From a virus: a DNA stretch of 64,000 bases. Position 1 is the stretch's first letter. Every line of letters begins with the position of its first letter. The translations under genes were made by a program, and so were the position numbers. The DNA is taken from IMG/VR virus record IMGVR_UViG_3300046787_000438, positions 64,001-128,000 of that record; one strand, written 5' to 3'. Below the pieces are notes generated by a model. The model saw only the letters and a list, made by a program, of their open reading frames with translations. It did not search any database and had not been told where the DNA came from. Shown here one piece after another: positions 41,358 through 60,361 of the stretch.

Positions 41358-42209
41358 ATGAGATTCCGTAAACGCCAAGATCCTGCTGCAGCAGCTGAAC
41401 TTTTCATCAGCAAAGCTCAGCAATACCTGGGCTACACAGCTGAGATGCTTGGCCGTAACATGTTCGGCCAGAAGGTTGGCTATGACTCAACCCCATGGAG
41501 CGGCGCGTTTATTGACGTAGTCGCCCGTGAGGCAGGCCTCCACCTACCAAGCTTTGTCTACACTCCTGCCGCGCTCGCAGAATTCATTCGCCAGGGAAAC
41601 TTTTCACGGGTACCGCAGCTTGGCAGCGTAGCGATCTATAACTTTTCATCAGAAGTTGGAGCTGCGGCGAGCGCCTTCTCAATGCCCCATTGCGGAATCG
41701 TGACCGACGTCCGCGAGTTCGAGACCACGGGACGGTTTATAACCGTTGAGGGAAACACCGAAGGTTCAACAACTCATACCAAGAAGGATGGCGTGCATCA
41801 ACGGATCCGCACAATTAACGATGTAGTTATTTTTTGTCAGCTGCCTGCAGCACGGATCTCAACTTTTAACGGAAGATTGATTAAGCTCCTGGATCGCGGC
41901 CGCACAACTTTTAACGGCGAGGATCTTAAAGCTATAGACGACGCGGCCCGCATTCCTTCAATACTTCGCATCAACAACGAGATCAAGCACGGATCACGTA
42001 ACCGCGATATCGAGATCCTGCAGCTAGCGCTTGCAACTGTTACTGACTTACGTGGCTGCGTACCTGGTAAGTGGGACACAATAACCGCGTCTGCTTGCGC
42101 AAGATATCAACGTATGATAGGATTCGTTGGAGCAGATGCAAACGGCCTGCCTAACCTAAACACGCTGAAGCGCTTAGCTAAAGAGACGGGACTCTTCACA
42201 ATTGCCTAA
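41358..42209 (+). CDS. CHAP-domain protein with peptidoglycan-binding C-terminus
   Basis: PWSGAF, HCGIV, TVEGNT; LQLAL...G.WD..T. Confidence 0.7.
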   Translation: MRFRKRQDPAAAAELFISKAQQYLGYTAEMLGRNMFGQKVGYDSTPWSGAFIDVVAREAGLHLPSFVYTPAALAEFIRQGNFSRVPQLGSVAIYNFSSEVGAAASAFSMPHCGIVTDVREFETTGRFITVEGNTEGSTTHTKKDGVHQRIRTINDVVIFCQLPAARISTFNGRLIKLLDRGRTTFNGEDLKAIDDAARIPSILRINNEIKHGSRNRDIEILQLALATVTDLRGCVPGKWDTITASACARYQRMIGFVGADANGLPNLNTLKRLAKETGLFTIA

Positions 42210-44279: not shown

Positions 44280-44740
44280 AAGCGGCATGCGGCGAGCGCG
44301 TTCCAAATCAAGGGCGTGCGCTCGTTGTATGCTACTATCATGCGCTCACTAGAAGTACACCTGTTCGAAACCGACTCTGACCTAGACTCTGCTATCGCTA
44401 GCGGAGCTGTACTACCAGAGCAACTCATCCGAACCGTATGCATCGATTGCCAAGGACCAGTAGGTTTTGCTGGACTGGAGTTCGAACCCTTCGTTGTAGT
44501 CATAGACGAGAATGACCAAGACTGGTTAGCATGCACCGATTGCGCAAAAGCTATCCTCAACTACGTGGACACATTCTTTCCGCCAGTCACAAAAAGTCAC
44601 TTCGCTCATCACCTCACAGATGACGAAGAATTCGACGCCTTCTAACTGTATTTATTTTTTGTCCAACACGCCGTAGTTCGTGTTGCGTAATGTTATACCC
44701 TTTGCTATAGTTGGATTACCAATAGAAAGGGGTTTCCCAA

Positions 44741-45259
44741 ATGGGAATGGATGTTTATGGCAAGAACCCAGTAAATGAAACTGGGCAATACTTCCGCCGA
44801 AATGTGTGGGGCTGGCATCCTCTATGGGGTTATGTGGAAGACACTTACCCAGAGATTGCCGAACTGGTCGAACACGCACACAGCAACGATGGCGATGGCT
44901 TGGGTGCGAGAAATGCTAAGAAGTTAGCGAAACTTTTGATGAGCGATTACGAAACTGGCAAAGCCAAGGAGTATGTCGAGGAACGCAACAAGGCTATTTC
45001 AGAGTTGCCTTTTGATGAGTGCCGTCTATGTGCTGGCACAGGTATTCGCACAGACGAGATTGCGGTAAATGCTGGTATGCCAACTCAAGAGTTGCGACCA
45101 GACATTGCGATTATCGTTGGTCGAACTCACGGAACTTGTAATGCTTGTAGTGGCCTAGGTAAGACAGAGCCTTGGGCAAGCAACTACTACCTAGAGCCAG
45201 ACGACATAAAAGAGTTTGCCGAGTTCCTAGTGAACTCTGGTGGATTTGAGATTTGCTAG
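44741..45259 (+). CDS. Early phage protein with DnaJ-type CxxCxGxG zinc motifs
   Basis: CRLCAGTG ... CNACSGLG; AGAAAGGGG RBS. Confidence 0.65.
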   Translation: MGMDVYGKNPVNETGQYFRRNVWGWHPLWGYVEDTYPEIAELVEHAHSNDGDGLGARNAKKLAKLLMSDYETGKAKEYVEERNKAISELPFDECRLCAGTGIRTDEIAVNAGMPTQELRPDIAIIVGRTHGTCNACSGLGKTEPWASNYYLEPDDIKEFAEFLVNSGGFEIC

Positions 45260-45466
45260 ACCCTGACTAAAAGTCAAACACCTGAGCCAAGTGTCTAAAC
45301 TGGCTCATCTTTTTGATTGGAAGTTGTATTTATTTTTTGTCTACCCCCGAGGGGCGACACGCCGAAAAAGATTTTCATAGATAGATTTGACATTCCGTAA
45401 AAAGTTTGCTTTACTTTACTTACTGACCAAAAGGGCAGACACGACACACGAAAGGGGCTAGTCGAA

Positions 45467-46081
45467 ATGACTACCACAGCAACAGCAACACCAAAGATTG
45501 TAGGCAACGCACTCTACCTAGAGTTGGTTGGCGACACTACTATGCCCGAGGACAAACTACGCCAAATGCTCGGGTGGCAACACAAGGGAACTAAGCAGGT
45601 TCTCATGTTCCCCGAGTATCAGGACGACATGGGCAAGACCCACAGCGCAGTCATTATGACCAGAGTTATCACAGAGAACTCCCCACGCGCTCAATGGGAC
45701 ATGAACTACATGGCTCGCAATCGTCCGAAGCCACAGTTGGCAGATAACGATTCTTACTACGCCAACTACCCAGAATACAGCAACGCCGAGTGGGACGCAC
45801 TAACAAGTCGTGAGCAGTTTGAGGCTCGTAAGCGTGCCATAGCAATCCTGCTCAAGAATGTAGTGCTTGACACTTACTACTCCGAGCCAGACGCAGAGGG
45901 CAATCGCACAACGCTCGCAGGGCAGGGTTGGGTTGTTCGTGAGGGAAAACCAATCGCAGTTGAGATTACTGACCAAGACATGACAGAACTTCACAGCGAC
46001 AGCAAAACTCCACAGGCAGTTATTCGCCGAATCAACAAAGTTCGCACGACACTTGACAAGTTCCCAGCAAAACTTGTATAG
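45467..46081 (+). CDS. Hypothetical early protein
   Basis: GAAAGGGG RBS, 204 aa. Confidence 0.7.
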   Translation: MTTTATATPKIVGNALYLELVGDTTMPEDKLRQMLGWQHKGTKQVLMFPEYQDDMGKTHSAVIMTRVITENSPRAQWDMNYMARNRPKPQLADNDSYYANYPEYSNAEWDALTSREQFEARKRAIAILLKNVVLDTYYSEPDAEGNRTTLAGQGWVVREGKPIAVEITDQDMTELHSDSKTPQAVIRRINKVRTTLDKFPAKLV

Positions 46082-46125
46082 TTTCTAATAGATACACACG
46101 ACACGACACGAAAGGGGCGAAAGCC

Positions 46126-47190
46126 ATGTATCAGCAAAAAGTAGTAGCAGAACACACGAACCCAGACCTAGCAGGATTGGACTTCGACAAACTGGCAGAG
46201 GCGGTTTCTAGCGCAGTATCAAGCAAGGCGTTTGGAATCACAACTTCGGTGATTGACGACTTGCTAACTCCAGCAGGACGAGCAACTATCAGAGTAAAGA
46301 CAGGGGCAAAGCCTACTTCACCTATCTCACTTGATTCTCTTGTAGAATCGAAAGAGGAAAAGGCAGAGGTAAGCATGGAACTTGGTGAAACACTTGAGGG
46401 CGCAGAATCATACGCTCGTCCAAATGGCGACTTGTATTATGGTCGCAAGTGGGGCGAAAATGTAGATGTCGAAGTTCTACGCAAAGCACGAGAAGCAGGT
46501 GCTTATGTCATGTTGTATGGAGTCCCTGGAACTGGTAAGACCGCTATGGTCGAAGCCGCTTTTCCAGATGAACTTTACACAATCTTGGGTTCGGGCGACA
46601 CAGAGGTTTCTGACTTGGTGGGTGGCTATGTCCAGACCCCGAGTGGCGGTTTTGAGTGGGTGGACGGAGTTTTGACTCGTTCGGCACTTGAGGGCAAAGT
46701 TCTACTGATTGACGAGATTGGTCTGATTGACCCAAAGGTTCTTTCGGTGGTCTATGGTCTAATGGACGGCAGACGAGAACTGACCATTAGCGCAAACCCA
46801 GAGCGAGGCACTATCAAAGCACAAGAGGGTTTTTATGTCGTGTCAGCGACTAACCCAAATGTCGCAGGTGTTCGCTTGTCAGAGGCACTTCTATCTCGCT
46901 TCGCCATTCAGGTCGAAATGACAACTGACTGGGCGTTGGCAAAGAAGTTGGGTGTTCCGCAGAGTGCCGTTGTCGCTTCACAGAACTTGGCAAAGAAAAT
47001 GGAGAATGGCGAAACTTCATGGTCGCCACAGTTCCGAGAGTTGCTTGCGTTCAGGGACTTGTCAAAGTTGTTCGGAACGAAGTGGGCGGTTCAGAACTTG
47101 CTCGCTTCTGCCCCAGAGATTGACAGACCAGTTGCGTCAGATGTATTCACCCGAGTATTCGGAGAGGCGATTCTGCCAGCCAAGATTTAG
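46126..47190 (+). CDS. MoxR/CbbQ/CobS-like AAA+ ATPase
   Basis: GVPGTGKT Walker A, DLVG, LLIDE Walker B, ATNP, ALLSRF. Confidence 0.9.
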   Translation: MYQQKVVAEHTNPDLAGLDFDKLAEAVSSAVSSKAFGITTSVIDDLLTPAGRATIRVKTGAKPTSPISLDSLVESKEEKAEVSMELGETLEGAESYARPNGDLYYGRKWGENVDVEVLRKAREAGAYVMLYGVPGTGKTAMVEAAFPDELYTILGSGDTEVSDLVGGYVQTPSGGFEWVDGVLTRSALEGKVLLIDEIGLIDPKVLSVVYGLMDGRRELTISANPERGTIKAQEGFYVVSATNPNVAGVRLSEALLSRFAIQVEMTTDWALAKKLGVPQSAVVASQNLAKKMENGETSWSPQFRELLAFRDLSKLFGTKWAVQNLLASAPEIDRPVASDVFTRVFGEAILPAKI

Positions 47191-47319
47191 TAGGTGGTCG
47201 TGTCCCTACTGAAACCCCGAGAGTAGCGCAAGAAAAATGTTTGCGAAAACACTTGCGCTACTCTCAAAAGGGTGTATAGTTAGACATACAACAACAAAGC
47301 CAGATGAAAGGGAAAGCAA

Positions 47320-49185
47320 ATGGCACACTACAGTTCTAAGGGAAAATCAAGACTTACCAAGCGCACTAGCGCAACTCCGTCAGAGTGGTATCGTGTTTGC
47401 TCACAGATTGGTCGTCTAGTAAACGACTGGTCATGGAGAAGCGACCTTGCCGTTTATGGTGGCGAGGATTCATGCGAGGGTCGTGCGATAGCAGGATACT
47501 ACGCCGAGATTGCCGAGATTGAGATAGATGTTCGCAAGGCGTTTGGAGAGGGCGTTAGCCCAGACTTCGTTGGCGACCTAAACGAAAAGGCAACTCGCTA
47601 CGAGTTCCCAATGGTTTCAGGAATCCTATTCCATGAGGCACTTCACGCTCGCCACACAGGCTGGGACACAGCCTACTTGTCAGAGCAGTTTGAGAACATA
47701 GAAGCACAGGCGTTCATGGCACTTGAGGAATCTCGTATCGAATCTCGTGGCGTGAAAGAGCGACCAGAGAATCGTTTGTTCCTACGCACTTCGGCGTTGG
47801 ACATGGCACTTGAGGGCGTAAACGAATCAGCACTCGCAAAACTTGGTGGCGACAAATGGATTACAGCGAATCTCGCAACTCTATCTATCGCACGAGTGGA
47901 CGCAGGTGTTCTTGAGGTTTCAGACATCAGCGAGATTTACAAAGAGGTTGTCAGCGTTCTTGGTCAAGACTTGTTTGACGAACTACGCAAAGTTTGGATT
48001 GCGTTTCAGGCACTAGGCGTTCCACAGATTGACGAGGCGATTGCGCTCGCTAAGAAGTGGGTCGAACTTTTGCGTGAGGCAGACCCAGAGGGCGAGCCAA
48101 ACAAGGACGAAGTTGGCGACCCATTCGCAGAGGAATCTGGCGAGGGTGAGGGCGAGGGCGAAAGCGAATCTGGCGAGGGCAAGGGCGAAATGTCAGAAGC
48201 CATGAAGCAGTTGGTTTCTAAACTTTCAGATTCAGCGAGCAAGACAGAAGCAAACGCAGAGCAAGCACTTGGCGACCAAGAGCGCAAAGAGAAGTGGGAC
48301 GAGGAATCAAAGGCACGCCAGAGCGAAGCGCAGAAAAACAATCAGCGCAAGCAGGAAGCCAAAAAGATTTTCGACAAGAGCCACAACGAAAGTGGTTCTG
48401 GTTCTAACTCACGAGTAAGCGAACGCCGAGTGCCAACTGGCGCAGAGCGAGCCAGCGCAGTCCAGATTGCTAAGGCGTTGGAAAAGGCGAAGTATCGTGA
48501 GCGTTCTGTCCATGTTCGCAAGCACCAAGCACCACAGGGTCGCTTGATTGCTCGCAACGCAGTCCAGAACAAGGCTATGGAATCTATGGGATTGCGTGGC
48601 GAGTTGCCAGCGTGGAAGTCAAAGACACGCAAGCACACAGACGACCCAACTCTCAAGATTGGTGTCATGGTGGACATCTCTGGTTCTATGGGTTCGGCTA
48701 TGGAATCTATGGGAACTACGGCTTGGGTTCTATCGGAAGCAGGTCGCCGAATCCAAGCGGAAACCGCTATGATTTACTACGGCTCGGGTGTCTTTTCAAC
48801 TCTACGCCGAGGTCAGCGATTGAGCGAGGTTTCTATCTACACCGCACCAGACGGAACGGAAAAGTTTGCCGAGGCGTGGGAAGCACTTGACGGCGAACTC
48901 GGATTGACTTTCACAGACGGCGTGCGTTTGTTGGTAATCGTGTCGGACGGAAACTACACACCGAAGCAGACCGAGAGTGCCAAGCAGATTCTCCAAGAGT
49001 GTAAACGGAACGGCGTGGCAGTCTTGTGGATTACCCCGAAAGATTGCTACTCGCTTGGGGCAAGGCACATCATCAACGGCTCGGGTTGGGGAATCCACTT
49101 GGATAACCTTGACACGAATGAGATTGCTTCACTTGTCGGCAAGACGGCAAGCGAAGCGTTGGGTAAGGTCGGCTCGCTCATGTGA
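47320..49185 (+). CDS. VWA domain protein with N-terminal HExxH and acidic linker (CobT-like AAA+ partner)
   Basis: HEALH, EESRIE, E/G-rich linker, MIDAS DISGSM...T...VSDG. Confidence 0.85.
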   Translation: MAHYSSKGKSRLTKRTSATPSEWYRVCSQIGRLVNDWSWRSDLAVYGGEDSCEGRAIAGYYAEIAEIEIDVRKAFGEGVSPDFVGDLNEKATRYEFPMVSGILFHEALHARHTGWDTAYLSEQFENIEAQAFMALEESRIESRGVKERPENRLFLRTSALDMALEGVNESALAKLGGDKWITANLATLSIARVDAGVLEVSDISEIYKEVVSVLGQDLFDELRKVWIAFQALGVPQIDEAIALAKKWVELLREADPEGEPNKDEVGDPFAEESGEGEGEGESESGEGKGEMSEAMKQLVSKLSDSASKTEANAEQALGDQERKEKWDEESKARQSEAQKNNQRKQEAKKIFDKSHNESGSGSNSRVSERRVPTGAERASAVQIAKALEKAKYRERSVHVRKHQAPQGRLIARNAVQNKAMESMGLRGELPAWKSKTRKHTDDPTLKIGVMVDISGSMGSAMESMGTTAWVLSEAGRRIQAETAMIYYGSGVFSTLRRGQRLSEVSIYTAPDGTEKFAEAWEALDGELGLTFTDGVRLLVIVSDGNYTPKQTESAKQILQECKRNGVAVLWITPKDCYSLGARHIINGSGWGIHLDNLDTNEIASLVGKTASEALGKVGSLM

Positions 49186-49553
49186 GTCCCTTGCCCTAAC
49201 GGAGTGCCTAACCGATTGGATTGAGCATAGTGCCAGACCCCCCTTACTGGTCGCTCTCCTAACGGACGGGACACTAGAAGCCCCTATCAACTCTTTCCCC
49301 CATTGGTTGGTAGGGGTTTCGCCATACCCAAGACGGATAGGTGCTTGCGTGGTATTAGCGTGCTAGGGATTGACGGCTCGTCAGAAGTTCTCGTGAAAAG
49401 CAGGTGACAGACTTTTCTGATTTTCGAGCCAGAGGTTGTATTTATTTTTTGTCGAAAACTTCGTATCTTGATTTGACATGACTAAAAAAGTCAGGTAAGT
49501 TTGGAACTACCAAACAGGGACGAACAAGAAGTAGTCCCAAAGGGGGTGTCAGA

Positions 49554-49892
49554 ATGGCAACAGCCACTAAGACCCAAGACCAGACCCAGACGAAAGTCTT
49601 GGTCAAAGTTTCACGCAAGTTCGTTGCTATGTTGGACGAACTCAAAGATGTTCGTGCTACTTACAATCAGGCAGACAAGCGTATTGCCGAACTGCGTAAG
49701 GACATCTTTGCCGTAGTTGGCGAACAAGCCCAGACTCTAACCCACAATGGGGTTGAGGTCGCCGTAATCGTTGCCCAGACCAAAGAGGTTGTGGACATGG
49801 ACTTGCTGAAAGCCAACTTCCCAGAGGTGTATCAGGCTTGCCTAGTGAGCAAGACCCAATACCCTATTCGTGCGGTATCTCGCTCGAAGTAG
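49554..49892 (+). CDS. Early protein, paralog of 57810..58154
   Basis: TLTHNGVE, DLLKANFPEVYQAC. Confidence 0.7.
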   Translation: MATATKTQDQTQTKVLVKVSRKFVAMLDELKDVRATYNQADKRIAELRKDIFAVVGEQAQTLTHNGVEVAVIVAQTKEVVDMDLLKANFPEVYQACLVSKTQYPIRAVSRSK

Positions 49893-50040
49893 TCGAGAGG
49901 GGCAGGGGGAAATCCTTGCCCCTTTTTTCTGAAGCGAGTATGTATTTATTTTTTGTCTGCGATTCCGACCCGCCGTCAAAAGTTGTGGCGAATGTCGCAA
50001 CGCCGTAGTAAGTTAGAACTATAAGAAAGGGGAGTTCACA

Positions 50041-50376
50041 ATGAGTGAGCCATTAGAACTACAAGACATAGCAGGACTTAGCCTGACGATTATTGGCGTG
50101 TTGATTGAGAGTTATGTGAACGAGGGATACGCCGACCCAACAATGTATAAGGCGTTGTCTGCGACTGCCGAACTAGCAGAGCAGTTTCAGGCACGAGCAA
50201 AGTATGACAACGCACCTAGCGATGTTGTCGAATCTATCGCCGACTTGCTAGTGAATCTCAAACTCACAGCGATTGAGTGCGGAGAAGTTGTAGAGCGAAT
50301 CATCAAAGAGCAGGGAATCGAAGTCAAGGGCGATTGGTCTGCCCACACTTGCGACGACCCAGAACACGACCACTAG
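50041..50376 (+). CDS. Hypothetical early protein
   Basis: AGAAAGGGGAG RBS. Confidence 0.65.
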   Translation: MSEPLELQDIAGLSLTIIGVLIESYVNEGYADPTMYKALSATAELAEQFQARAKYDNAPSDVVESIADLLVNLKLTAIECGEVVERIIKEQGIEVKGDWSAHTCDDPEHDH

Positions 50377-50385
50377 GAGAGAATC

Positions 50386-50688
50386 GTGAATCTAAACTTT
50401 AGAACTGCCCTCGGAGAAATCTTGCGAGAGAAGCGACACGAGTTAGGTCTGAACTTGCGTCAGGTTTCCAGCAAAGGTTTCGTGGCACTCGGATACTTGA
50501 GTGAAGTTGAGCGTGGACAGAAAGACGCTTCATCAGAAACTCTAGAAGCGATTGCTCAAGGCTTGGGCGTAGAAGTTTACGAACTTGTCGTAGAAGCAGG
50601 GTTGCGGATGGCAAATGCCCCAGACAGCCCAGAAAGTCTTTTCACTCGGAACGCCGATTGGTCAAAGCAATACGCCGACCTCTCATAG
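50386..50688 (+). CDS. XRE-family HTH regulator, ClgR-like
   Basis: GEILR..R...G..LR.VS....V.LGYLSEVERGQK.ASSE.L.AI. Confidence 0.85.
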   Translation: MNLNFRTALGEILREKRHELGLNLRQVSSKGFVALGYLSEVERGQKDASSETLEAIAQGLGVEVYELVVEAGLRMANAPDSPESLFTRNADWSKQYADLS

Positions 50689-50868
50689 CCCCGATAGCCA
50701 CAACTCAAAGCCCCTAAGCAGATTGCTTGGGGGTTTTGTTTTGCCCGATTATTTTGCGCCGTGCGTCTGTATTTATTTTTTGTCGCAGAGTTTTCGCCAC
50801 GAACGATTTTGGTTTGCCAAATGTCGGTAGCAGGGTATAGTATCGAACTATCAAAGAAAGGGGACAGA

Positions 50869-51123
50869 ATGTCCAGCAACTATCCAGAGGGGTCAATGCG
50901 TGGTTCGGGTATCTATGCCGAGGACTACACAGGAACTTTTTATTGCTCGGCTTGTGATGATGAATACTCGCTAGATGGAACTACTGACGATTGGGGCTAC
51001 AACGCTTCAGCCGAATGTCCAGACTGCGGTGCGACTTTGGAGGTAGAACTTCCAAGCCGAGAAGAACGAGATGAGGACGCTGATTACGATTCTTATCGTG
51101 ATAGCCAAATGGATTGGAACTAA
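50869..51123 (+). CDS. Zn-ribbon acidic early protein
   Basis: CSAC...CPDC; start set by RBS. Confidence 0.6.
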   Translation: MSSNYPEGSMRGSGIYAEDYTGTFYCSACDDEYSLDGTTDDWGYNASAECPDCGATLEVELPSREERDEDADYDSYRDSQMDWN

Positions 51124-51560
51124 AATGAGTCGTATCGCAAGAGAAAACCCAGAAGCAACATACGAAGAACTTTTTGATTTAGGACTGCGTGGAAGCGTGC
51201 GGGTCAGAGAGGGAGAGCAACTCCACCAATACGATTGCCGTCAATGCGGAGAGATTGTAATGGTAGACCAAGAGCAACACGAACGCTTACAGTATTTCCG
51301 TAGCCACCCAAAAGAGTTTGGGACTAGAACGCCAAAGTGCGGAGATTGTTGGGTGAACTAGCCCACCAAAGTCTTCCCCCGAATAATCAGGAACAGAGAT
51401 TCCGATTCGGGGGATTTTCTTTTGTCTGGTGCGTTTTTATTTTTTAGGTTTGGGTGTATTTATTTTTTGTCCAGCTTCGACACACGCTCGCGGGATTGGT
51501 TTGCGGTTTGCTAGCGCTCGCCGTATGATTAGATTGTTCACAAAAGGAAGGGGTTCCCAA

Positions 51561-51950
51561 ATGGGTTCACGAACAGAATGGATTATCAAGACGAACACTA
51601 GCGATAGTGCGCTTCACCTATACAGCCACTATGGTGGAGAGTCAAAGTTTGAGGATACACAGCAAGCGCTATTCAAGGCTCAGCCTCGCTGGAACGACAT
51701 TAGTTATGGCGCTCGTATCTTCACTAGCCAAATTATTGGCAACGATTGGGGCAGCGAAACTGGATTCGGCATTGCCATTGGTAATGACACAGACAACATG
51801 TTTGAGGAGAGTTACTTTCACGCCGTCATTGACTTTCCAAATCAGTTAGTTACTTTCGGTTCTATGACTTGGACTTTTGATGAGTTCGTGGTTGCCGACA
51901 ACTTTCAAGAGATTCTGGTTGAGGAGTATTGGGCAGAGGTGAGCGTCTAA
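51561..51950 (+). CDS. Phage protein (MG.R...LY.H..G type)
   Basis: AAGGGG RBS. Confidence 0.6.
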   Translation: MGSRTEWIIKTNTSDSALHLYSHYGGESKFEDTQQALFKAQPRWNDISYGARIFTSQIIGNDWGSETGFGIAIGNDTDNMFEESYFHAVIDFPNQLVTFGSMTWTFDEFVVADNFQEILVEEYWAEVSV

Positions 51951-52240
51951 TGGGCGCACTTCACGCTAACGCCATTGCCGCCGATACAGCGATTCCACTA
52001 GAGAAACAACTGGAGTGGCACTTACAAGGTAATCACTTTCCGCCGATTCCAAAATCTATGGTCATTCCATGCGAGGAAGCGATTCAGGCTTTCTGGGAAG
52101 ATGACTTAGAGAGGTTGATTAGTCTTCCAGATGGAGTTGGATACAAAGGTTTGACAGTTGCCCCTGCGAGGGCGATTATTATCGAACACCACCTAGACGC
52201 CTGGTGCGTTGAGTATGACGAAGAGGATTCAGACTTCTAG
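51950..52240 (+). CDS. Phage protein (HLQGNHFPP)
   Basis: TAATG coupling. Confidence 0.6.
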   Translation: MGALHANAIAADTAIPLEKQLEWHLQGNHFPPIPKSMVIPCEEAIQAFWEDDLERLISLPDGVGYKGLTVAPARAIIIEHHLDAWCVEYDEEDSDF

Positions 52241-52262
52241 TCAATAAGAGATAGACCCCGTC

Positions 52263-52370
52263 AGCGATTAGCATTGACGCTAATCGCTTTCGGCTTGCTA
52301 GGGTTTATCCCCCTTTTCCCTAGCATGCGGGTAGCAGATTCCCCCCTTTTCTGCTACCCGCTTTTCTTTT
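52263..52370 (+). ncRNA. Triple-hairpin element with C-rich loops ending in terminator
   Basis: Three perfect stems (10, 8, 12 bp); loops ATTGAC, TTTATCCCCCTTTT, TTCCCCCCTTT. Confidence 0.65.
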
Positions 52371-52518
52371 TGCCGTTTTGTTTTTCTTTTTTTTTGTTTT
52401 ACAAAGTGTATTTATTTTTTGTCTGTCAGATCAAAGCGCCGTTCGCAAAGGTGGAAAATGTCAGAGGATTTTAGTAAAGTTGTAGTAGTTGGAAGTTCCA
52501 ACAGATAAGGGGGCAGAG

Positions 52519-52881
52519 ATGCCAAAGACAGCAGTCATTGTGACTACCAAGGCGGAGGTCAGCATTATTGACATTGCCGAAGGTTCACTAAAGAAATTAC
52601 AAAGCGCCGTAGATGGCTTGATTCAGCCAATCGACCTAGACGCAAATGTGACTATGTGGGTGAACGAAGAGGGCTTGCTACGCAGTGACCTTGAGATGAA
52701 CGACATTGCCACAAGCCTTTACGCTCAAATGTATGACATCACTAACCCACTAATGGGAGATGTTGTCTTCACTGGTGGCACAGATGGAGAGGGCGAAACG
52801 CTCGGACTAGGCGACGACTATGTGAACGCAATCTACGCCCTAGTCGATAACTACAAACAGGTTATGTCGCAGTTCGCATAA
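52519..52881 (+). CDS. DUF3846-like protein
   Basis: LQSAVDGLIQ, MWVNEEG, N..AT, GDVVF.G. Confidence 0.7.
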   Translation: MPKTAVIVTTKAEVSIIDIAEGSLKKLQSAVDGLIQPIDLDANVTMWVNEEGLLRSDLEMNDIATSLYAQMYDITNPLMGDVVFTGGTDGEGETLGLGDDYVNAIYALVDNYKQVMSQFA

Positions 52882-53057
52882 CTAACAAAGACACAGCCCC
52901 TCGCAGAAATGCGGGGGGTTTCTTTTTACCCTAAACAAAAACTTTACGCGCTCGCGGGGTGTATTTATTTTTTGTCAAGCTGCCGTATTATGCGCCGTGA
53001 AAAGTTTGCGCTTGTCAGAGGTTGGTGGTAGGTTTGGAACAAGGAAAGGGGACAGAG

Positions 53058-54111
53058 ATGTCAATGCTAAAGACTAAGAACTACAACGCAGAGTTTGCGT
53101 TCGAGCAAGTCATTCGCCTAGTAGGTGGCGCAAGCGAGTATGGCGACAGCACCAAGGCTAGTATCTGGGCAGAGTGCCACAACAACGAAACTATCGAGAT
53201 GTTGGCGGGTATGTATCTGGTTGGTTCATCAGAGCGTGCGGAACGCAACCTTGCTCGTCTAAACGATAAGTTGCGACAGGTATTCGGTATCTAATGGCTA
53301 TGACTTATCAAGAGCGTAAAGCCAAGGGCTTGCGACAGCGTGCGGAGTATCGTAATCGTCTACACCACGCAGAACACCTTGCCGTAATGTTTCGTGGGTT
53401 CGGTATTGGATTTAGTTTTATTACAGTAATGACAGCCGTTGCTGGAGTTCACGGAACTTTAGCGATTGCGTTGTTCATTATGTTTATGTTGATTGCTGGT
53501 TCAGGTTTTATTGGCGCAGAACACATTATGTTTTGGGCAGAGCAAAGCCGTTATCCAAAGAGTCGCCGTAGAACTTTACGAAGCGAGTTCGCAGATGAGT
53601 GGCGTAGATTTAGACAGTACCGAAAAGTAGAAAAGGGTTAGAAGTGAAAATGGTAACGATAGGTGACTCGGTTGCCTCGCTAGAAGTTAGAAATAACGCA
53701 GACAATACTGGACTAGAACTAGAAGTTTGGGTCACTAAGCGTGTTGGCTCGTTCTATGCTCTATTGGGCTACGGAGTATTCGGAGTGCCATTAGGCATGA
53801 GTGAAGTAGATTTCTACACAGATACCCTATACCCGATTATGAAGAGCGCACCCCTCACCACAAGTCAGCCAAGCCGAATGGCGTTGGATTTTGATGGCTC
53901 TATGAAAAGAGCAGAGGCACACATAATCAGCCATAGAAACAACCACCCATTCTCAAATAAAACTCGGTCTGTATCCCCTGAAGAGGGCTTAGCAAAAATG
54001 CTAGGCGCAGGGGCAAAATACTTGACTATTTTGGCGGAGATAAATGGAGTTACGCCACGCACTATGGAAACTATGCGTAAGAGGTCAAAAGAGTATTACG
54101 CAAAACAATAA
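53058..54111 (+). other. Cassette of three hypothetical genes (53058-53294, 53294-53641 membrane, 53644-54111)
   Basis: RBS and coupled junctions. Confidence 0.6.
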
Positions 54112-54313
54112 GAGTTAGCCCCCCACTAACAAAAGCCCCCATTATGTTCATTCATAGTGGGGGTTTTGTTTTGCTCGAAGCGTTTTGTGTTTTTTTACAC
54201 TCGCCGTGTATTTATTTTTTGTCTATATGTGGGGCAACTTTTTACGGAGCGCCGTAAGATGTTTGATTTATTTGGTTTATAGGATACGATTGAACTACAT
54301 AGAAGGGGAGCAA

Positions 54314-55000
54314 ATGCTAGTAAACAACAAAATGATGTCTTATAGGACTACACCGACTGAAAAATTGCTGGGCACAGTAAACAAGTATGCCGTGATTGGC
54401 TACCTAGAGGGAATAAAGACTTTAGTTTCAGATAGCGAAACACTAATCAAGGCGCAGGAGCAGAAGTTCACTGACGCAATAGTAAAAGCGGAGGCGCAAG
54501 TTTCTGAGTGGGAAGCCGAGTATATTCAACTACATACAAAGGCATTGCGAGCAGAACTTAAGCGTAAACTCGAAGCACCGACCAGCGCTACTCATTGGCT
54601 GAGTGCCGAGGAGATTCGTCTGCCTATCAGAGATGAAGTAATCTCTAACGAGATTGCTGAACTTTTAAAGCGCCGCCCTGATTATCGAACTTATCAGATT
54701 GCTAGGGGAGATGTCGGAGCGCCTCATGACATTCAGTATTCTAGAGCGTGGAGCAAAGGCAATAAGACTTTGGTAGGTATAAATAGACTCACCACGCGCC
54801 GTGTGGAGCAGTGGCAAGCCTCACTAGATAGTCTGATTTCTGACCTAAAGGATAGAAACAAGCAAGAAGTTTACATAGCGCAGGTTATGGAACTCAAGCG
54901 CACCACAGCAACTATTCTTGCGAACTGGGGTATAGATACCACCAAGACTGAGCGCAAGGACAGGGATAAACCAAAGCCACGAAGCAAAACTAAAAAGTAA
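54314..55000 (+). CDS. Hypothetical early protein
   Basis: GAAGGGGAG RBS. Confidence 0.6.
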   Translation: MLVNNKMMSYRTTPTEKLLGTVNKYAVIGYLEGIKTLVSDSETLIKAQEQKFTDAIVKAEAQVSEWEAEYIQLHTKALRAELKRKLEAPTSATHWLSAEEIRLPIRDEVISNEIAELLKRRPDYRTYQIARGDVGAPHDIQYSRAWSKGNKTLVGINRLTTRRVEQWQASLDSLISDLKDRNKQEVYIAQVMELKRTTATILANWGIDTTKTERKDRDKPKPRSKTKK

Positions 55001-55163
55001 CAACCAAAGACCCAAGCCCCGCTAGATTTCTGGCGGGGTTTCTTTTTATCGTGCTATTCGTGTATTTATTTTTTGTCTGAAGCCCGCCGCAACTTTTGAT
55101 GAGAGTTGCGAAGTGTCACAGACCTAGGGTAAGATTTAAGTATCAAAGAAAGGGGAAGCGATT

Positions 55164-55892
55164 ATGGCAAAGCCAAGCGTTTCAGCAGTAAAAGAATGGG
55201 ACACAGTTTACGAGAGTGACCTAGTCGAACTCGCAGTAGGGACAGCAGTATTTGCCGAGGACTACTGGCGTATGACGAATGTTGTTACTGGCAAGAAGAA
55301 GTATTTCTATGGCGAACTTGCGTGGGCAGATTCACGCCGAGAAGCAAGCGACCTAGACTTTGAGGCGTGGAACGTATGAACGAGTTGAAGCGTTGCCCAA
55401 AGTGCGCTGGACACATTCCGAACAACAAGACCCCTGGGGCATACCCTGGTGCGATTTCACGCCGAGACAACACGACAGAGATTTGTTCAGCGTGCGGAAC
55501 AATGGAAGCGCTGGAAGATTTCTTTGAGCGTGAAAAGGTTGGTGCGTAATGGCAACAACCTTAGAGCAGACAACTTGCTACAAGTGCGAAGCCGAGATTG
55601 AGGCAGAGGTTGGGCAGGTTCACCCTTTGTGTTCAGAGTGCCAAGACGATTTCGATAGTTGGTTCAATAGCCAGTTAGGAATGTTCAAGTGAGCAAGCAA
55701 GTATTTTTTGTTATTGGCGTTGATTTAGATGACAAAGAGGTTTTTATCGCAGATGACACTTATTCAGCGCGGTTCAGCGAAGACGAGCAAGTCTGGGACA
55801 CCGACATAAACGAATGGGTTGAAGATGAAGATAGGAAACACTATCTTGACGCATTAGACCTTTTGAACAATAAAAAGTTAGCAAGAGATTAG
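55164..55892 (+). other. Cassette of four small genes, including two Zn-finger mini-proteins
   Basis: 55164-55379, ~55376-55549 (CPKC..CSAC), ~55549-55692, 55689-55892. Confidence 0.55.
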
Positions 55893-56098
55893 ATTTCTGC
55901 CCCCCCCCCCTAAAAGAAAAAGCGCTCGCCGAAAGGGGGGCGTTTTTTTTTGCGTGCGGGAGATTTATTCGAGTCCCGTGTGTATTTATTTTTTGTCGAA
56001 GTTTAGGGGAGCGCCGTTGAGGAGTTTGCGTTTATCGTTGGTTGCTTGTATAGTTATAGATGTCAGGAAAACTTGACACTAAGTAGGGAGATAGAAAA

Positions 56099-56323
56099 AT
56101 GAAGTTTTACATTCGCAGAGCAGTAGTCGGAGTTATCGCAGTTCCAGTTGTCGCAGGTCTTTACACTTTTGCTTACCTATGGTTGGTAATCGCAGGGGGA
56201 GAGCCTAACGTTTCAAGTGAAGAAGTATTCAACAATGGGTTGTGGCTAGGCGCGTTGATTGCCGTAATGCTTACATTCTCACCGCAGGTTTCTAAGTTGC
56301 TAAACAGAATTGTGGGTGCGTAA
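56099..56323 (+). CDS. Small membrane protein
   Basis: Two TM segments, GGGAG RBS. Confidence 0.6.
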   Translation: MKFYIRRAVVGVIAVPVVAGLYTFAYLWLVIAGGEPNVSSEEVFNNGLWLGALIAVMLTFSPQVSKLLNRIVGA

Positions 56324-56694
56324 TGAGCAACGCCGATTGGGCATTATTGTTTGGAGTAGTGAGCCTATCAGTTGGTTCATTCCTATTAGGTTTCGTGATT
56401 AGCGGATTGCCAAAGCGTGAGGGTCGTAATGGTCGCCACGCAAATGGCAGGGGTCGCCACACGAGTTAGAGTTGTCCCCCTACAACAAAATAAGAAACCT
56501 CACGAGTGTTCATTCCTCGTGGGTTTTCTTTTTGTTTGGGTTGGCGTTCGTTGTTTTTTTCTGCCGAGTGTATTTATTTTTTGTCGCGCTCGCTGCGGGC
56601 AACAACTCGCCGTTCGTGAAAAGTTTGGGAATGTCGTAGGTAGTTAGTAAAATAGAACTATCCCAAAAGGGACAAAAGGAAAAGGGGAAACAGA

Positions 56695-57027
56695 ATGTCA
56701 AGAGTTGCTAACTATCAGATAAATGGTTTGATTCAAAAGTTTCAAGAGTTTGTGAACTACAACGGAACTATTACTGCCGAGATAGATGACAAGGGGATTT
56801 ACCGTATTACGCATTGGCGAACTACTATCCTCGAATACGATGTCTACAACCACCAGATTGTTTCGCTAACATACGGATACATTAGCCAGACAACCAGCAC
56901 ACTAGTCGGTCGTATCTTGCGCTCGCTACCGCAACCAGCCGTTGAGAACTATCTAGGCTATTTCTCACCGTCAGCCGAGAAGCGTCGCTTAGTGAAGATG
57001 TTGAACACTAGGGCTTACGCCTACTAA
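56695..57027 (+). CDS. Hypothetical early protein
   Basis: AAAGGGG RBS; YISQTTS motif. Confidence 0.65.
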   Translation: MSRVANYQINGLIQKFQEFVNYNGTITAEIDDKGIYRITHWRTTILEYDVYNHQIVSLTYGYISQTTSTLVGRILRSLPQPAVENYLGYFSPSAEKRRLVKMLNTRAYAY

Positions 57028-57236
57028 CCACCAATACAAAGAAGCACCCGTCAGAAGTGGCGGGTGTTTTTTTATTTGTGCGGGAGATTTGTTTGCCGCA
57101 GCGTGTATTTATTTTTTGTCTGAGGTGCGACACGGTTCGTGAAAAGTTTGGAATACGATTTGACTTTTGGTTCGATAGCGATAAACTTGAGTTATCAAGT
57201 AAACCGCTTGATAGAGAAAGATAAAGGGGATACAAA

Positions 57237-57488
57237 ATGTCAGCAGTTCTAACCACCCAGAACATCGTTACCGTAGTTGCTAAGGTCGTAGACATCAACA
57301 CAGGCGAAACCATTGAGCCAGTTTACGAAGCATACGGATACGAGAAGTTTCAGGAGTTCGTGGACTTTTACCGCAAGCAGAACTACATCAACAAGATTGT
57401 TTGGGTTCGTGGCTTTGGATACAACGACGAGAACGGCGCAAGCCAAGTTCTAGCAACCGAGTTCGTTGGCGTTGGAAGTTTCGAGTAA
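57237..57488 (+). CDS. Hypothetical early protein
   Basis: AAAGGGG RBS. Confidence 0.6.
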   Translation: MSAVLTTQNIVTVVAKVVDINTGETIEPVYEAYGYEKFQEFVDFYRKQNYINKIVWVRGFGYNDENGASQVLATEFVGVGSFE

Positions 57489-57809
57489 TGGAGACCCTAG
57501 AGAGCCTACTAGAGGGGGTAGCGTTTGAGATTGAGAACGAAACAGGAATACCGATAGAGGTTATCTTTGAGGGAAACCTAATCACCATCAAGCAAGGCTA
57601 ACCACAGAGAGAAGCCCCCAAGCCGAAAGGCTAGGGGGTCTTTCTTTTGCCGTAGTTGGCTTTGGCGTTTTTTGTTCCCGTGCCTGTATTTATTTTTTGT
57701 CGAAACCGACACGCCCAGCCGTAAAAAGATTTGACTTATTTTGGAATAGCGTTTAGGCTGATTACATCAGCAAAAGTTGATACACACAAAAAGAAAAAGG
57801 GGCTACAAA

Positions 57810-58154
57810 ATGACCACCACCACCACCCAGAACGCAACCACCACCAAGGCAACCAAGGTTGTTCTTGAGCAGGTAAAGCAGTTGGTCGAAGTTCGTGCCG
57901 AGATTGCTCGCCTAGAGAAGATGAAGGTCGCATTGACCTCCCAGATTGAGGGCGTGTTTGGTGTAGACAAGGAAGCCAAGACTGCCGAGTTCACTACCTT
58001 GACCCACAACGGCATTGAGTTTGCTCGCATTGACCTACGCACTCGCAAGGGTGTAGATACCGAGAAACTTGCCGTAGAGTTCCCAGAAGCCTACGAGGCT
58101 TGCTTTGACCCAGAGATGACCAAGTATTTCCAGATTGTGAGCCTCTACAAGTAA
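57810..58154 (+). CDS. Early protein, paralog of 49554..49892
   Basis: TLTHNGIE, EKLAVEFPEAYEAC. Confidence 0.7.
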   Translation: MTTTTTQNATTTKATKVVLEQVKQLVEVRAEIARLEKMKVALTSQIEGVFGVDKEAKTAEFTTLTHNGIEFARIDLRTRKGVDTEKLAVEFPEAYEACFDPEMTKYFQIVSLYK

Positions 58155-58528
58155 GCCACTAGCCAAGAAGCCCCTGCCGTTAGTTCGGTAGGGGTTTTTT
58201 GCTTGCCGAGGCACTTGATTGGTGTCAAGGGGGGCTAGACAGAAAATAAATACACAGGGCAGGGCTCTATTCACTCATAGGGCTTGCCCGTAGAGAGTTC
58301 CACCAGATAGAGCAGGGGCAGGACATACATAGACCACACAAGACCCATCAAGATAGTCGCCCACCATTCTTTAGCCCCTAGAAGCCTCATAGAAGCCACA
58401 GGCATAGCCTTAGCCACCAGATACCCACCAAGACCCCTAGAAGTCCACAGAGGCACTCATAGCCCAGAGCAGGGAGATAGCCACACAGAGGGGGGGGGTG
58501 TCTATTAGTTCACAGTCATAGACATACA

Positions 58529-58598
58529 ACACATCACACATCACAGCCCAGAGCAAGAGAGCAACACACATCACACATCACACATCACACATCACACA
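58529..58598 (+). repeat. Tandem heptamer CACACAT (about 5 copies 58565-58598, about 2 copies 58529-58545)
   Basis: Read directly from sequence. Confidence 0.9.
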
Positions 58599-58893
58599 AG
58601 CACTCAGGTAGAAGCACAGAGAAACTTTTTTATTGCTAGTGAAATGTTTGAAGCACATCAGTAATGAACGCAGACCCCTTCCGTTTTTGGAAACAAATCA
58701 ACACGCACCGAAAATATACCGCTGCCTTCTCACCCGCCAAAAGCAGTAGACGTTAAGGTACTAAATCTTCCGTTACCGTACACTCCCCCTCTTTTAATAA
58801 ACGCCCCTACCCCCCTTCTTTTTGGAGGACAAAAAATTTCCAAAAAATTTTTTAAAAAATTTACGTAAAGGTGCCTAGTGGTAGGATTAGCTC

Positions 58894-59854: not shown

Positions 59855-60361
59855 ATGCCTAGAAGATCAGCGCGTGGCCAGAAGCTCCCTCCTCAGGAGG
59901 TTGAGCTACTCAATTCAATTACTATGGATGCCCTTATTGTTCGAGTAAATGACCTTTACCAAGCTGGATGGTCTCTACAAAGTATCGGCGAGGCACTCTC
60001 TCCCCAACGTCCAAGAACTACCATCCGCAGTTGGGTATTGAAGGCCCCTTCACAGACTCCAGCAAGCAAAGTAGTAGACGCCCCTATTCCATCCCCCGCT
60101 CTGAGAACAGAAGAGAGCGGTTATCAGAAGAAGCGTGTCTCTCCAGGCATCCCTCAGGACATTTACGAAGATATCCAGCGACTTGCCCCCCTTGCACGTA
60201 CTTTCCGCTCTAGGATGTCATCGACTTCGGCACCATCAGTTGCTAACGGGCGTCTAACTGATCTATGTAAGAATCTCAATACTAAGGGCGTTTCCGTTAA
60301 AGAGCTCGCTGAGGCAGCAGGAGTAACCTACCGAGCTATGTACAAGAGAATTAAGCTTTAA
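59855..60361 (+). CDS. Double-HTH DNA-binding protein (paralog of 62662..63258)
   Basis: GWSLQSIGEAL...; GVSVKELAEAAGVTYRAM. Confidence 0.7.
   Translation: MPRRSARGQKLPPQEVELLNSITMDALIVRVNDLYQAGWSLQSIGEALSPQRPRTTIRSWVLKAPSQTPASKVVDAPIPSPALRTEESGYQKKRVSPGIPQDIYEDIQRLAPLARTFRSRMSSTSAPSVANGRLTDLCKNLNTKGVSVKELAEAAGVTYRAMYKRIKL

What the first reader, a model, noticed from the sequence alone, without database searches (positions are those of the whole stretch)
44647..58254. Array of 14 self-contained gene cassettes each headed by an invariant 17-mer
Each unit is (usually) terminator hairpin - TGTATTTATTTTTTGTC - variable spacer with CGCCG - promoter-like -35/-10 - G-rich RBS - 1 to 4 genes. The 17-mer is identical in all 14 copies while flanks diverge, and its distance to the promoter varies, arguing against a simple UP element. 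An inverted copy closes the array. Possible roles: operator or activator site, loading site for a DNA-entry or protective protein, or crossover site for cassette shuffling (compare PeSL elements of T4-like phages). No recombinase gene is visible in the window.
Basis: partly seen in the sequence, partly recalled or inferred. Interest (0 to 1): 0.88.

Follow-up and report, generated by a model that had tools for sequence, protein, structure and literature searches.

The report
Phage cassette array shuffled at 17-mer
An uncultured 152-kb lake actinophage runs 14 small early-gene units from host-type promoters that each carry the same 17-base word about 70 bases upstream. Related phages use their own versions of the word and gain, lose and reorder units exactly at it, a new variant of the PeSL shuffling known from T4-type phages.

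Summary
There are 14 exact, same-strand copies of TGTATTTATTTTTTGTC (chance 0.02), and none elsewhere in the 152-kb genome. Each copy lies between a terminator hairpin and a SigA-type promoter (TTGnnn-17-TAnnnT). In 8 of 14 cassettes it ends 51-52 nt before the -10, which centres it near -72.

Thirty-five related loci share this architecture but use lineage-private versions of the word (at least eight classes). Each version is nearly invariant within a genome, even where backbones are 87-95% identical.

Four recent indels have their junction inside the word. Gene adjacencies break at 61% of word-bearing junctions against 15% of the others. No tyrosine or serine recombinase is encoded, but a general recombination module is.

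The array coincides exactly with a 14-kb block purged of 4-bp palindromes. That suggests first-entering, pre-early DNA, as in T5 or SPO1.

Best reading: a PeSL-like terminator/promoter module with an added far-upstream docking word. The word is probably read by an unidentified sequence-specific factor, and its identity makes it the crossover point for cassette shuffling. I found no covarying DNA-binding protein. Helical phasing holds in this genome only.

The scan found the same system before in a relative (e1-5863743), and analogous arrays in other phages.

The parts
44630..58713 (.). Block purged of nine 4-bp palindromes (AATT, ACGT, AGCT, ATAT, GATC, GGCC, GTAC, TGCA, TTAA). It starts 18 nt before the first word and ends about 460 nt after the inverted near-copy.
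   Evidence: 16 sites inside the block against 30-55 per kb outside. All 4-bp palindromes together run at 15.5 per kb inside against 59.5 per kb outside. The same contrast is seen in relatives.
44647..45324 (+). Cassette 1: word 44647-44663, -35 at 44683, -10 at 44706, gene 44741-45259 (172 aa, no family).
   Evidence: There is no terminator upstream; the word follows the stop codon of ORF 44316-44645.
45325..49436 (+). Cassette 2: word 45325-45341. Genes 45467-46081 (204 aa), 46126-47190 (AAA_5, MoxR/CobS-like) and 47320-49185 (621 aa, weak VWA/CobT-like).
   Evidence: Hairpin at 45283-45307. This cassette is conserved in all relatives and is the head of the array.
49437..49940 (+). Cassette 3: word 49437-49453, gene 49554-49892 (112 aa, family '0'). 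The whole unit is absent from the 96%-identical relative L139.
   Evidence: The BLAST segments overlap by exactly the 17-mer, and the 3-way alignment switches partner inside the word.
49941..50767 (+). Cassette 4: word 49941-49957. Genes 50041-50376 (111 aa) and 50386-50688 (HTH_3, 100 aa).
50768..51454 (+). Cassette 5: word 50768-50784. Genes 50869-51123 (84 aa, weak zinc-ribbon hits) and 51071-51361 (96 aa).
51455..52406 (+). Cassette 6: word 51455-51471. Genes 51561-51950 (129 aa, phrog_31860) and 51929-52240 (103 aa).
52407..52959 (+). Cassette 7: word 52407-52423, gene 52519-52881 (DUF3846, 120 aa).
52960..54206 (+). Cassette 8: word 52960-52976. Genes 53058-53294, 53294-53641 and 53644-54111.
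54207..55060 (+). Cassette 9: word 54207-54223, gene 54314-55000 (228 aa).
55061..55980 (+). Cassette 10: word 55061-55077. Four small ORFs: 55164-55379, 55376-55549, 55549-55692 and 55689-55892.
55981..56568 (+). Cassette 11: word 55981-55997. Genes 56099-56323 and 56323-56469.
56569..57103 (+). Cassette 12: word 56569-56585, gene 56695-57027 (110 aa).
57104..57684 (+). Cassette 13: word 57104-57120, gene 57237-57488 (83 aa).
57685..58237 (+). Cassette 14: word 57685-57701, gene 57810-58154 (114 aa, second paralogue of family '0'), followed by a hairpin shared with the converging minus-strand genes.
58238..58254 (-). Inverted near-copy of the word (one mismatch) at the far end of the array. 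It is conserved in L139, and L131 has two inverted copies.
41822..41838 (+). Look-alike with one mismatch inside coding sequence (ORF 41358-42209). Not part of the array.

Best explanation
The region is the pre-early or early 'host-takeover' block of a lytic, siphovirus-like actinophage of about 152 kb. It is built from autonomous units, each ordered as terminator hairpin, 17-mer, host SigA-type promoter, strong RBS, then 1-4 small genes.

The 17-mer is a far-upstream promoter element, usually spanning about -80 to -64. I infer that it is the docking site of a sequence-specific factor that acts on RNA polymerase at these mostly weak -35 promoters. An activator is most likely; a shut-off protein is possible. 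The factor's specificity evolves quickly, so each phage lineage has its own version of the word.

Because the word is the only long identical stretch shared by all intergenic regions, general recombination or copy-choice between copies deletes, duplicates, inserts and reorders whole units. This is what PeSL elements do in T4-type phages.

Shown here: the architecture, the preferred position, the lineage-private versions and the crossovers inside the word. Inferred: early timing, protein binding, the direction of regulation and the recombination enzymes.
For: Architecture:
- The pattern TTGnnn-16..18-TAnnnT occurs 10-50 nt downstream of 64% of 174 word sites, against 5% of random sites.
- A hairpin plus T-run lies upstream of 80% of word sites, against 6% of random sites.
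- The aligned logo shows TTG, a 17-nt spacer, TGn-TAnAnT and an A seven nt further on.

Position:
- The distance from word end to -35 peaks at 26-28 nt in 65 of 174 sites.
- In non-redundant arrays, 51 of 107 sites have the word end 49-52 nt before the -10.
- In this window the distances are 42, 51-52, 61-62 and 68 nt.

Lineage-private versions, each nearly invariant within a genome and confined to the array:
- TGTATTTATTTTTTGT
- TAGTTATTTTTTCTG
- GTATCCACTTTTT(G/T)A
- GTATTCATTTTTTCT
- CGTTTTCACTTTTT
- GTGTTTATTTTTTG
- ATTATGTATTTTTT

Fast, coordinated change of the word:
- L292 and L294 share an 87% identical backbone, yet every copy differs in class.
- L134 and L135 have 95% identical flanks but different words at orthologous sites.

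Weak -35 boxes:
- Only 19 of 150 are TTGACA.
- The nearly word-less relative L306 has consensus TTGACTTGACA boxes instead.

Crossovers:
- Four 3-way alignments switch partner inside the word.
- Adjacency breaks occur at 61% of word-bearing junctions against 15% of others.
- Upstream flanks follow the upstream gene and downstream flanks follow the downstream gene.

Enzymes:
- No tyrosine or serine recombinase is found.
- A module of helicase, PD-(D/E)XK nuclease, AAA_24 and DUF669 lies at genome 14.1-18.2 kb.

Early or first-entering status: the palindrome purge matches the array exactly. T5/BF23 first-step-transfer DNA is restricted only through sites in that region (PMC10644984). The SPO1 host-takeover module is a terminal block of about 12-13 kb of small early operons (PMC6873191).
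Against: No binding factor was identified. The array's HTH_3 protein, the two double-HTH proteins just downstream, a WhiB-like protein and others do not co-vary with the word class. Only two complete genomes were available, and both belong to the same class.

About half of the sites lie off the preferred distance. Across relatives, these off-peak distances show no 10-bp periodicity (R about 0.02).

One + strand cassette in L131 is headed by an inverted word.

Roughly half of the clean indels inside arrays have junctions away from the word.

There is no expression data.
Confidence: 0.6

Rival explanations
1. The word is read by a host component, with no phage-encoded partner. It would be either a distal UP-like or alpha-CTD site, or a phased T-tract bend or nucleoid-protein site. 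On this view the lineage versions reflect different hosts.
For: The word is AT-rich, and every version keeps a T5-6 tract. In this class a second T-tract lies at -17 to -12 relative to the word. Early promoters must fire before any phage protein is made. No phage factor was found.
Against: All 16-17 positions are invariant within a genome, which is more than a bend or UP site needs. The class changes between phages with 87-95% identical DNA. UP elements abut the -35, whereas here 19-39 nt intervene.
Confidence: 0.15
2. The word is a stoperator-like or shut-off operator. A phage protein would bind the oriented word to block read-through or to silence the pre-early units once takeover is done.
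For: The site is asymmetric, oriented with transcription, present in many copies, and evolves by lineage, as with Cluster A stoperators (PMC6550527, PMC9283540). T5 shuts off its pre-early genes through A1 (PMC10644984).
Against: The word lies upstream of the promoter rather than over it or inside the transcription unit. A terminator already precedes it. The sites are confined to one block rather than spread genome-wide. There is no integrase or sign of lysogeny, and no repressor candidate co-varies.
Confidence: 0.1
3. The word is the target of a dedicated site-specific exchange system, an integron-like cassette platform.
For: The junctions of four indels lie inside the word. Cassettes are reordered among relatives. 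Orthologous words are swapped in short patches between 95% identical phages.
Against: The complete genome has no tyrosine or serine recombinase. The word has no dyad symmetry. The cassettes carry their own promoters. Other indels lie away from the word. A 17-23 bp identity is enough for annealing or copy-choice.
Confidence: 0.05
4. The word serves DNA entry or end biology. It could be a loading or pause signal on the first-entering DNA, or belong to a long terminal repeat.
For: The array equals a palindrome-purged block whose edge lies 18 nt before the first word. The copies share one orientation. T5 uses cis signals at the border of its first-step DNA (PMC10644984).
Against: The word keeps a fixed distance to each promoter and not to any end. 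An entry signal would not need to be repeated at each unit. No terminal data are available.
Confidence: 0.05
5. The word is itself a promoter for a phage RNA polymerase or sigma factor (a second, later promoter).
For: Identical short words heading every unit recall T7-type promoters.
Against: There is no Sigma70_r2 hit. The only Sigma70_r4-like HTH is below cut-off and is conserved across word classes. There is no T7-type polymerase hit, although that control search rang nowhere. Bases after the word are not conserved.
Confidence: 0.03

Closest known systems
PeSL (promoter-early stem-loop) regulatory cassettes of T4-type phages (Arbiol et al. 2010, PMC2839356; Comeau et al. 2014, PMC4122927)
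   Same: Both are composite terminator plus host-type early promoter modules with an AT-rich upstream part. Both sit in front of small ORFan genes in a plastic region. In both, indels and swaps between relatives are bounded by the modules, and recombination is proposed in the AT-rich part.
   Different: Here the phages are siphovirus-like actinophages. The conserved part is a discrete, invariant 16-17-mer placed about 27 nt upstream of a variable and mostly weak -35, rather than the promoter itself. The word is lineage-private and changes in concert. The hairpin always precedes the word. Mini-circles were not tested.
[quoted passage not shown] 1998, as cited in PMC6873191)
   Same: Both are blocks of about 12-13 kb containing some 24-26 small early genes. 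The genes are arranged in a dozen operons with their own strong promoters and RBSs.
   Different: I know of no private upstream word or cassette shuffling described for SPO1. A terminal-repeat status for the present block is untested.
T5/BF23 first-step-transfer (pre-early) DNA (PMC10644984)
   Same: Restriction sites matter only in the first-entering pre-early block. Here the cassette block alone is purged of 4-bp palindromes.
   Different: Two-step entry, a terminal repeat and an injection stop signal are not shown here. The gene content is unrelated.
Stoperators of Cluster A mycobacteriophages (PMC6550527, PMC9283540)
   Same: Both are asymmetric sites oriented with transcription, present in many copies, with motifs that differ between related phages.
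   Different: Stoperators are 13-14 bp, spread over the whole genome of temperate phages, and bound by the immunity repressor to stop elongation. The present word is confined to one block of an apparently lytic phage and lies upstream of promoters.
Class I activator-dependent promoters (CAP at -61.5/-72.5/-82.5; MarA/SoxS class I sites), from my own knowledge
   Same: The upstream site is centred near -62, -72 and -82 in this genome. The -35 boxes are weak.
   Different: The site is asymmetric, no protein is known, and phasing is not supported across relatives.
17-bp repeats of Cluster O mycobacteriophages (PMC4351075)
   Same: Both are invariant 17-bp words present many times in an actinophage. 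One Cluster O gene is flanked by a 17-bp direct repeat that is single in relatives.
   Different: The Cluster O repeat is a palindrome, is spread genome-wide, and has no fixed relation to promoters.

Membership tests
PeSL-type regulatory cassette | Host sigma-70/SigA-type early promoter in the module | tested here: met
   TTG-17-TGnTAnAnT-7-A logo. The promoter pattern follows 64% of word sites against 5% of random sites. Promoter activity itself was not assayed.
PeSL-type regulatory cassette | Stem-loop terminator or attenuator in the same intergenic module | tested here: met
   A hairpin of -8 kcal/mol or stronger ending at a T-run lies upstream of 80% of sites against 6% of random sites. 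In this window it is present at 13 of 14 copies.
PeSL-type regulatory cassette | Located in a plastic region, in front of small genes of unknown function | tested here: met
   Most cassette proteins have no Pfam or PHROG function. Gene order and content differ among relatives.
PeSL-type regulatory cassette | Indels and replacements between close relatives are bounded by the modules | tested here: met
   Four indels have their junction inside the word. Adjacency breaks occur at 61% against 15% of junctions.
PeSL-type regulatory cassette | Excised mini-circles detectable | not testable with these tools
PeSL-type regulatory cassette | Member of the T4-type myovirus lineage in which PeSLs were defined | tested here: not met
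   The nearest relatives are Microbacterium phages and Actinomycetia phage DSL-LC01. The tape measure is siphovirus-like. The similarity is one of mechanism, not descent.
Stoperator system (Cluster A) | Asymmetric site in one orientation relative to transcription | tested here: met
   All 14 copies are on the + strand with + strand genes.
Stoperator system (Cluster A) | Sites distributed across the genome, and a temperate phage with an immunity repressor | tested here: not met
   The sites occur only in the array. There is no integrase and no co-varying repressor.
Integron | Tyrosine integrase next to the array, attC-type imperfect inverted repeats, and promoterless cassettes | tested here: not met
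   There is no PF00589 or PF00239 hit in the complete genome. The word has no dyad symmetry. Each unit has its own promoter.
UP element | AT-rich element directly upstream of the -35 (about -40 to -60) | tested here: not met
   The word ends 19-45 nt before the -35, with a mode of 28-29 nt. A short AAAAG does abut the -35.
First-step-transfer or terminal-repeat pre-early block (T5/SPO1 type) | Block depleted of restriction-type sites | tested here: met
First-step-transfer or terminal-repeat pre-early block (T5/SPO1 type) | Block is a long terminal direct repeat or enters first | not testable with these tools
   This needs read coverage or physical ends. The 127-bp 'DTR' looks like assembly overlap.

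The most novel reading that the evidence does not exclude
The word is the address of a fast-evolving, lineage-private transcription code. An unrecognised phage factor, possibly virion-borne since the units look pre-early, would read a 16-17-bp asymmetric site at about -72. Its specificity would switch faster than the genome diverges, with all 14-19 sites following, perhaps helped by a short-patch copy mechanism (L134 against L135). The same word would then define which co-infecting phages can exchange working cassettes, coupling a private expression code to a private recombination code.
Probability: 0.2. Interest if true: 0.8.

Novelty: new variant of a known kind. Interest (0 to 1): 0.6.

Why it matters
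This shows that PeSL-style modular shuffling is not peculiar to T4-type myoviruses. A whole clade of abundant freshwater, and some marine, actinophages builds its takeover region the same way.

The crossover can be pinned to a 17-bp word in four independent natural events. That is unusually sharp evidence for how phage ORFan regions turn over.

The private, concertedly evolving word upstream of otherwise ordinary host promoters points to an unknown regulator or recognition system in phages of uncultured Actinobacteria. It gives a direct handle (the word) to fish for that system.

The coincidence with a restriction-site-free block marks these cassettes as the first line of host takeover and anti-defence genes. 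That makes the array a ready-made catalogue of candidates.

Tried and rejected
1. A trans-factor hunt by co-variation found nothing. The following show recognition regions that are either conserved across word classes or grouped against them: the HTH_3 protein (50386-50688), family '0', the two double-HTH proteins (59855-60358 and 62662-63255), WhiB-like 1 (genome 21275-21733), and small proteins flagged as closer to the same-class genome G001. The data were too thin, because only G000 and G001 are complete. G004 and G005 overlap by only 8 kb.

2. Host use of the word: scans of IMG/VR and of 185,579 species genomes gave only single chance hits.

3. An RNA-level target, such as a trans ribozyme (lead from e1-3293241): Rfam finds only tRNAs in the genome and nothing relevant in the array.

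4. Helical phasing is clean in this window (42, 51-52 and 61-62 nt) but is not supported for off-peak sites across seven arrays.

5. The generic E. coli-consensus promoter and terminator scan does not discriminate here.

6. The 41822 near-copy is a coding coincidence.

7. The resemblance of the GTATCCAC versions to a DnaA box (my own knowledge) was rejected as a general explanation, because the other classes lack it.

8. Cultured relatives do not have this system. A3Wally has no cassette design. DSL-LC01 has a different repeated promoter.

Full report
**What is there.** The pattern TGTATTTATTTTTTGTC occurs 14 times without mismatch on the + strand between 44647 and 57701. Shuffled sequence gives 0.02 matches. 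The window is bases 64001-128000 of a 152,411-bp IMG/VR virus record, and that genome has no other exact copy.

There are two one-mismatch copies. One is inverted at 58238-58254. The other, at 41822, lies inside a conserved lysin-like ORF, where it encodes NDVVIFC. Orthologues in other lineages keep the peptide but not the DNA word, so it is a coding look-alike.

**The phage.** PHROG and Pfam hits give the following:
- a 1019-aa tape measure
- Pol I
- a primase-helicase
- a T4-type large terminase at genome 130.7 kb
- collagen-like fibres
- ribonucleotide reductase (RNR)

The nearest database phages are the roughly 190-kb Microbacterium phages (A3Wally and others) and Actinomycetia phage DSL-LC01, at 47-51% identity for the primase. 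The genome has no Sigma70_r2 hit, no tyrosine integrase and no serine recombinase. It has two WhiB-like genes. A general recombination module lies at genome 14.1-18.2 kb: helicase, PD-(D/E)XK nuclease, AAA_24 and DUF669.

**Anatomy of a unit.** Upstream of 13 of the 14 words is a hairpin of -8 to -25 kcal/mol ending in a T-run. Downstream come a -35/-10 pair, an AAAGGGG-type RBS and 1-4 small ORFs.

Over 174 word sites in this and eleven related loci:
- The simple pattern TTGnnn-16..18-TAnnnT starts 10-50 nt after the word at 64% of sites, against 5% of random positions.
- A terminator precedes 80% of sites, against 6% of random positions.
- Aligned on the -35, the logo reads AAAAg-TTGc-17 nt-tGgTAaAnT, with an A seven nt later. 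This is a SigA-type promoter with an extended -10.

Only 19 of 150 predicted -35 boxes are TTGACA. TTGC(T/G)n is commoner.

Cassette proteins are mostly ORFans. The exceptions are:
- an AAA_5 / VWA-like pair
- an HTH_3 protein
- a DUF3846 protein
- weak zinc-ribbon hits

**Position of the word.** The word end lies 26-28 nt before the TTG in 65 of 174 sites, and 25-30 nt before it in 90 of 174. In seven non-redundant arrays, 51 of 107 sites have the word end 49-52 nt before the -10. With the start site about 12 nt after the -10 start, the word spans roughly -80 to -64.

In this window the distances to the -10 are 42 nt (2 sites), 51-52 nt (8), 61-62 nt (3) and 68 nt (1). One promoter, at 51455, was re-called by eye. 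This looks like steps of one helical turn. Across relatives, however, the off-peak sites show no 10-bp periodicity. I therefore treat phasing as a feature of this genome only. Automated promoter calls may also blur it.

**Relatives use private versions.** I searched with the VWA-like protein and obtained 11 IMG/VR loci and 24 metagenome loci at 58-99% identity. Almost all have the same terminator-word-promoter design, but the word differs by lineage:

| Lineage (loci) | Word |
|---|---|
| This phage, L139, L131, L299, L300 | TGTATTTATTTTTTGT |
| L130, L132, L137, L140, L292, L296 | TAGTTATTTTTTCTG |
| Many loci, including a TARA contig | GTATCCACTTTTT(G/T)A |
| L134 | GTATTCATTTTTTCT |
| L298, L309, L315 | CGTTTTCACTTTTT |
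| L302 | GTGTTTATTTTTTG |
| L310 | ATTATGTATTTTTT |

All versions keep ...A(T/C)TTTTT. Within a genome the core is invariant across 14-19 copies. In the four larger records I examined, it occurs only in the array.

The class changes faster than the backbone:
- L292 and L294 are 87% identical over the conserved genes, yet every copy differs in class.
- L134 and L135 are about 95% identical right up to the word at orthologous sites, but differ inside it.
- L134 mixes three copies of one class with one copy of the other.

Two more distant solutions exist. L304 and L306 have almost no word, and have consensus TTGACTTGACA -35 boxes instead. DSL-LC01 repeats a 25-bp extended -10 promoter flanked by an inverted repeat about 30 times. 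A3Wally has tightly packed genes and no cassette design.

**Recombination at the word.** The head of the array is syntenic in all relatives. It comprises the first unit, the AAA/VWA unit, a family-'0' gene and the HTH unit. The remaining units differ in order and content. Among gene pairs present in two genomes, adjacency is lost at 61% of junctions that carry a word, against 15% of junctions without one. The genome pairs in this count are not independent.

Flanks segregate as expected for a crossover at the word. When only the upstream gene is shared, the 70 nt upstream of the word are similar and the 70 nt downstream are at background. The converse also holds.

Four recent events are resolved to the base:
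1. L139 lacks this window's cassette 3 (504 bp).
2. L130 has an extra 643-bp unit relative to L140.
3. L137 lacks two units (956 bp) of L140.
4. L303 has 1693 bp more than L313 and L135.

In each case the left flank matches one copy, the right flank matches the other, and the switch falls inside the word. About as many clean indels inside arrays lie away from the word, so the word is a hotspot, not the only route. With no site-specific recombinase in a complete genome, annealing, homologous exchange or copy-choice on 17-23 bp of identity is the economical mechanism. This step is inference.

**The array is a distinct block.** I followed a lead from earlier notes on relatives and counted 4-bp palindromes. 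The array has 15.5 per kb, against 59.5 per kb in the rest of the genome. For nine words (AATT, ACGT, AGCT, ATAT, GATC, GGCC, GTAC, TGCA, TTAA) only 16 sites remain between 44630 and 58713, against 30-55 per kb on either side. The purge starts 18 nt before the first word. Relatives show the same contrast.

In T5 and BF23, restriction systems act only through sites in the first-entering pre-early DNA (PMC10644984). The SPO1 takeover genes form a comparable terminal block of small early operons (PMC6873191). I therefore read the array as pre-early or first-exposed DNA.

**What the word does.** Four observations fit a docking site for a sequence-specific factor acting on the promoter:
- exact identity of all positions in every copy
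- identity is lost immediately outside the word
- a preferred place relative to the promoter rather than to the terminator
- coordinated change between close relatives

The weak -35 boxes, and the consensus boxes in the word-less relative, favour activation. I could not name the factor. None of the DNA-binding candidates that could be compared follows the word classes. The word is not multi-copy in any scanned cellular genome. No structured RNA family is present. A host factor, a shut-off operator, an entry signal and a dedicated exchange site remain as rivals, with the weights given in the rival explanations.

**Comparison and novelty.** The closest known system is the PeSL of T4-type phages (PMC2839356, PMC4122927). 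It shares the same functional parts, the same plastic ORFan context, and the same bounded indels.

The differences are:
- the phage lineage
- a discrete invariant word separated from a variable promoter
- its lineage-private, concerted evolution
- crossovers mapped inside it
- the coincidence with a palindrome-free block

This is a new variant of a known kind. The scan has already reported the same system in a relative that carries the GTATCCACTTTTT version (e1-5863743), and analogous arrays in unrelated phages. Those are AI notes; the points I reuse were re-tested here.

Noticed in passing
window 44630-58713 (genome 108.6-122.7 kb): The cassette block is almost free of nine 4-bp palindromes: 16 sites against an expected roughly 500. 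CTAG, GCGC, TCGA and CATG are kept. CCGG is absent from the whole 152-kb genome.
   Followed up: yes
L306 and L304 (metagenome relatives), downstream of the VWA-like gene: These relatives have terminator/promoter cassettes but almost no upstream word. Their -35 regions read TTGACTTGACA, and two copies carry a degraded GGATCCACTTTTTTAC.
   Followed up: partly
L141 (Actinomycetia phage DSL-LC01, OQ999401) 9.3-30 kb of the locus: About 30 copies of a 25-bp promoter-like repeat, GATTCTAAAGATGTTATAATnGAATC. It is an extended -10 bracketed by an inverted repeat. Each copy is followed by ACGACGAAAGGACA and a small gene.
   Followed up: partly
L134 6.7-12.6 kb against L135: Orthologous intergenic regions are about 95% identical, but the word plus a few bases 3' of it differ. 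L134 carries three copies of one class and one of another. This looks like short-patch replacement or rapid selection.
   Followed up: partly
L131 15156-15172: A + strand cassette is headed by the word in inverted orientation, about 20 nt before its -35.
   Followed up: no
window 49554-49892 and 57810-58154: Paralogous 112- and 114-aa genes (family '0') bracket the variable part of the array in most relatives. They have a weak match to the C-terminal part of PHROG 434, annotated as RecE-like.
   Followed up: no
window -17 to -12 relative to each word: A second T4-7 tract sits 11-12 nt upstream of the word in nearly all copies of this class, even where the terminator's own T-run lies further away.
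   Followed up: no
genome 21275-21733 and 60892-61185: Two WhiB-like genes. The first carries a C-terminal Cys4 zinc-ribbon-like extension and the second a basic tail.
   Followed up: partly
window 59855-60358 and 62662-63255: Two proteins of 168 and 198 aa lie just downstream of the array. Each has two HTH-like regions, one of them Sigma70_r4-like at 24.6 bits. They are highly conserved across word classes and may regulate later genes.
   Followed up: partly
window 58894-59844: A 316-aa gene is present here but absent from the 96%-identical relative L139. This indel is not bounded by the word.
   Followed up: no
word versions with GTATCCAC (L133, L135, L136 and others): These versions match 7 of 9 bases of the DnaA-box consensus TTATCCACA (my own knowledge). 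The other classes do not.
   Followed up: no
window 15460-16328: A cluster of seven tRNA genes: Ser, Met, Ile, Leu, Arg, Asp and Thr.
   Followed up: no
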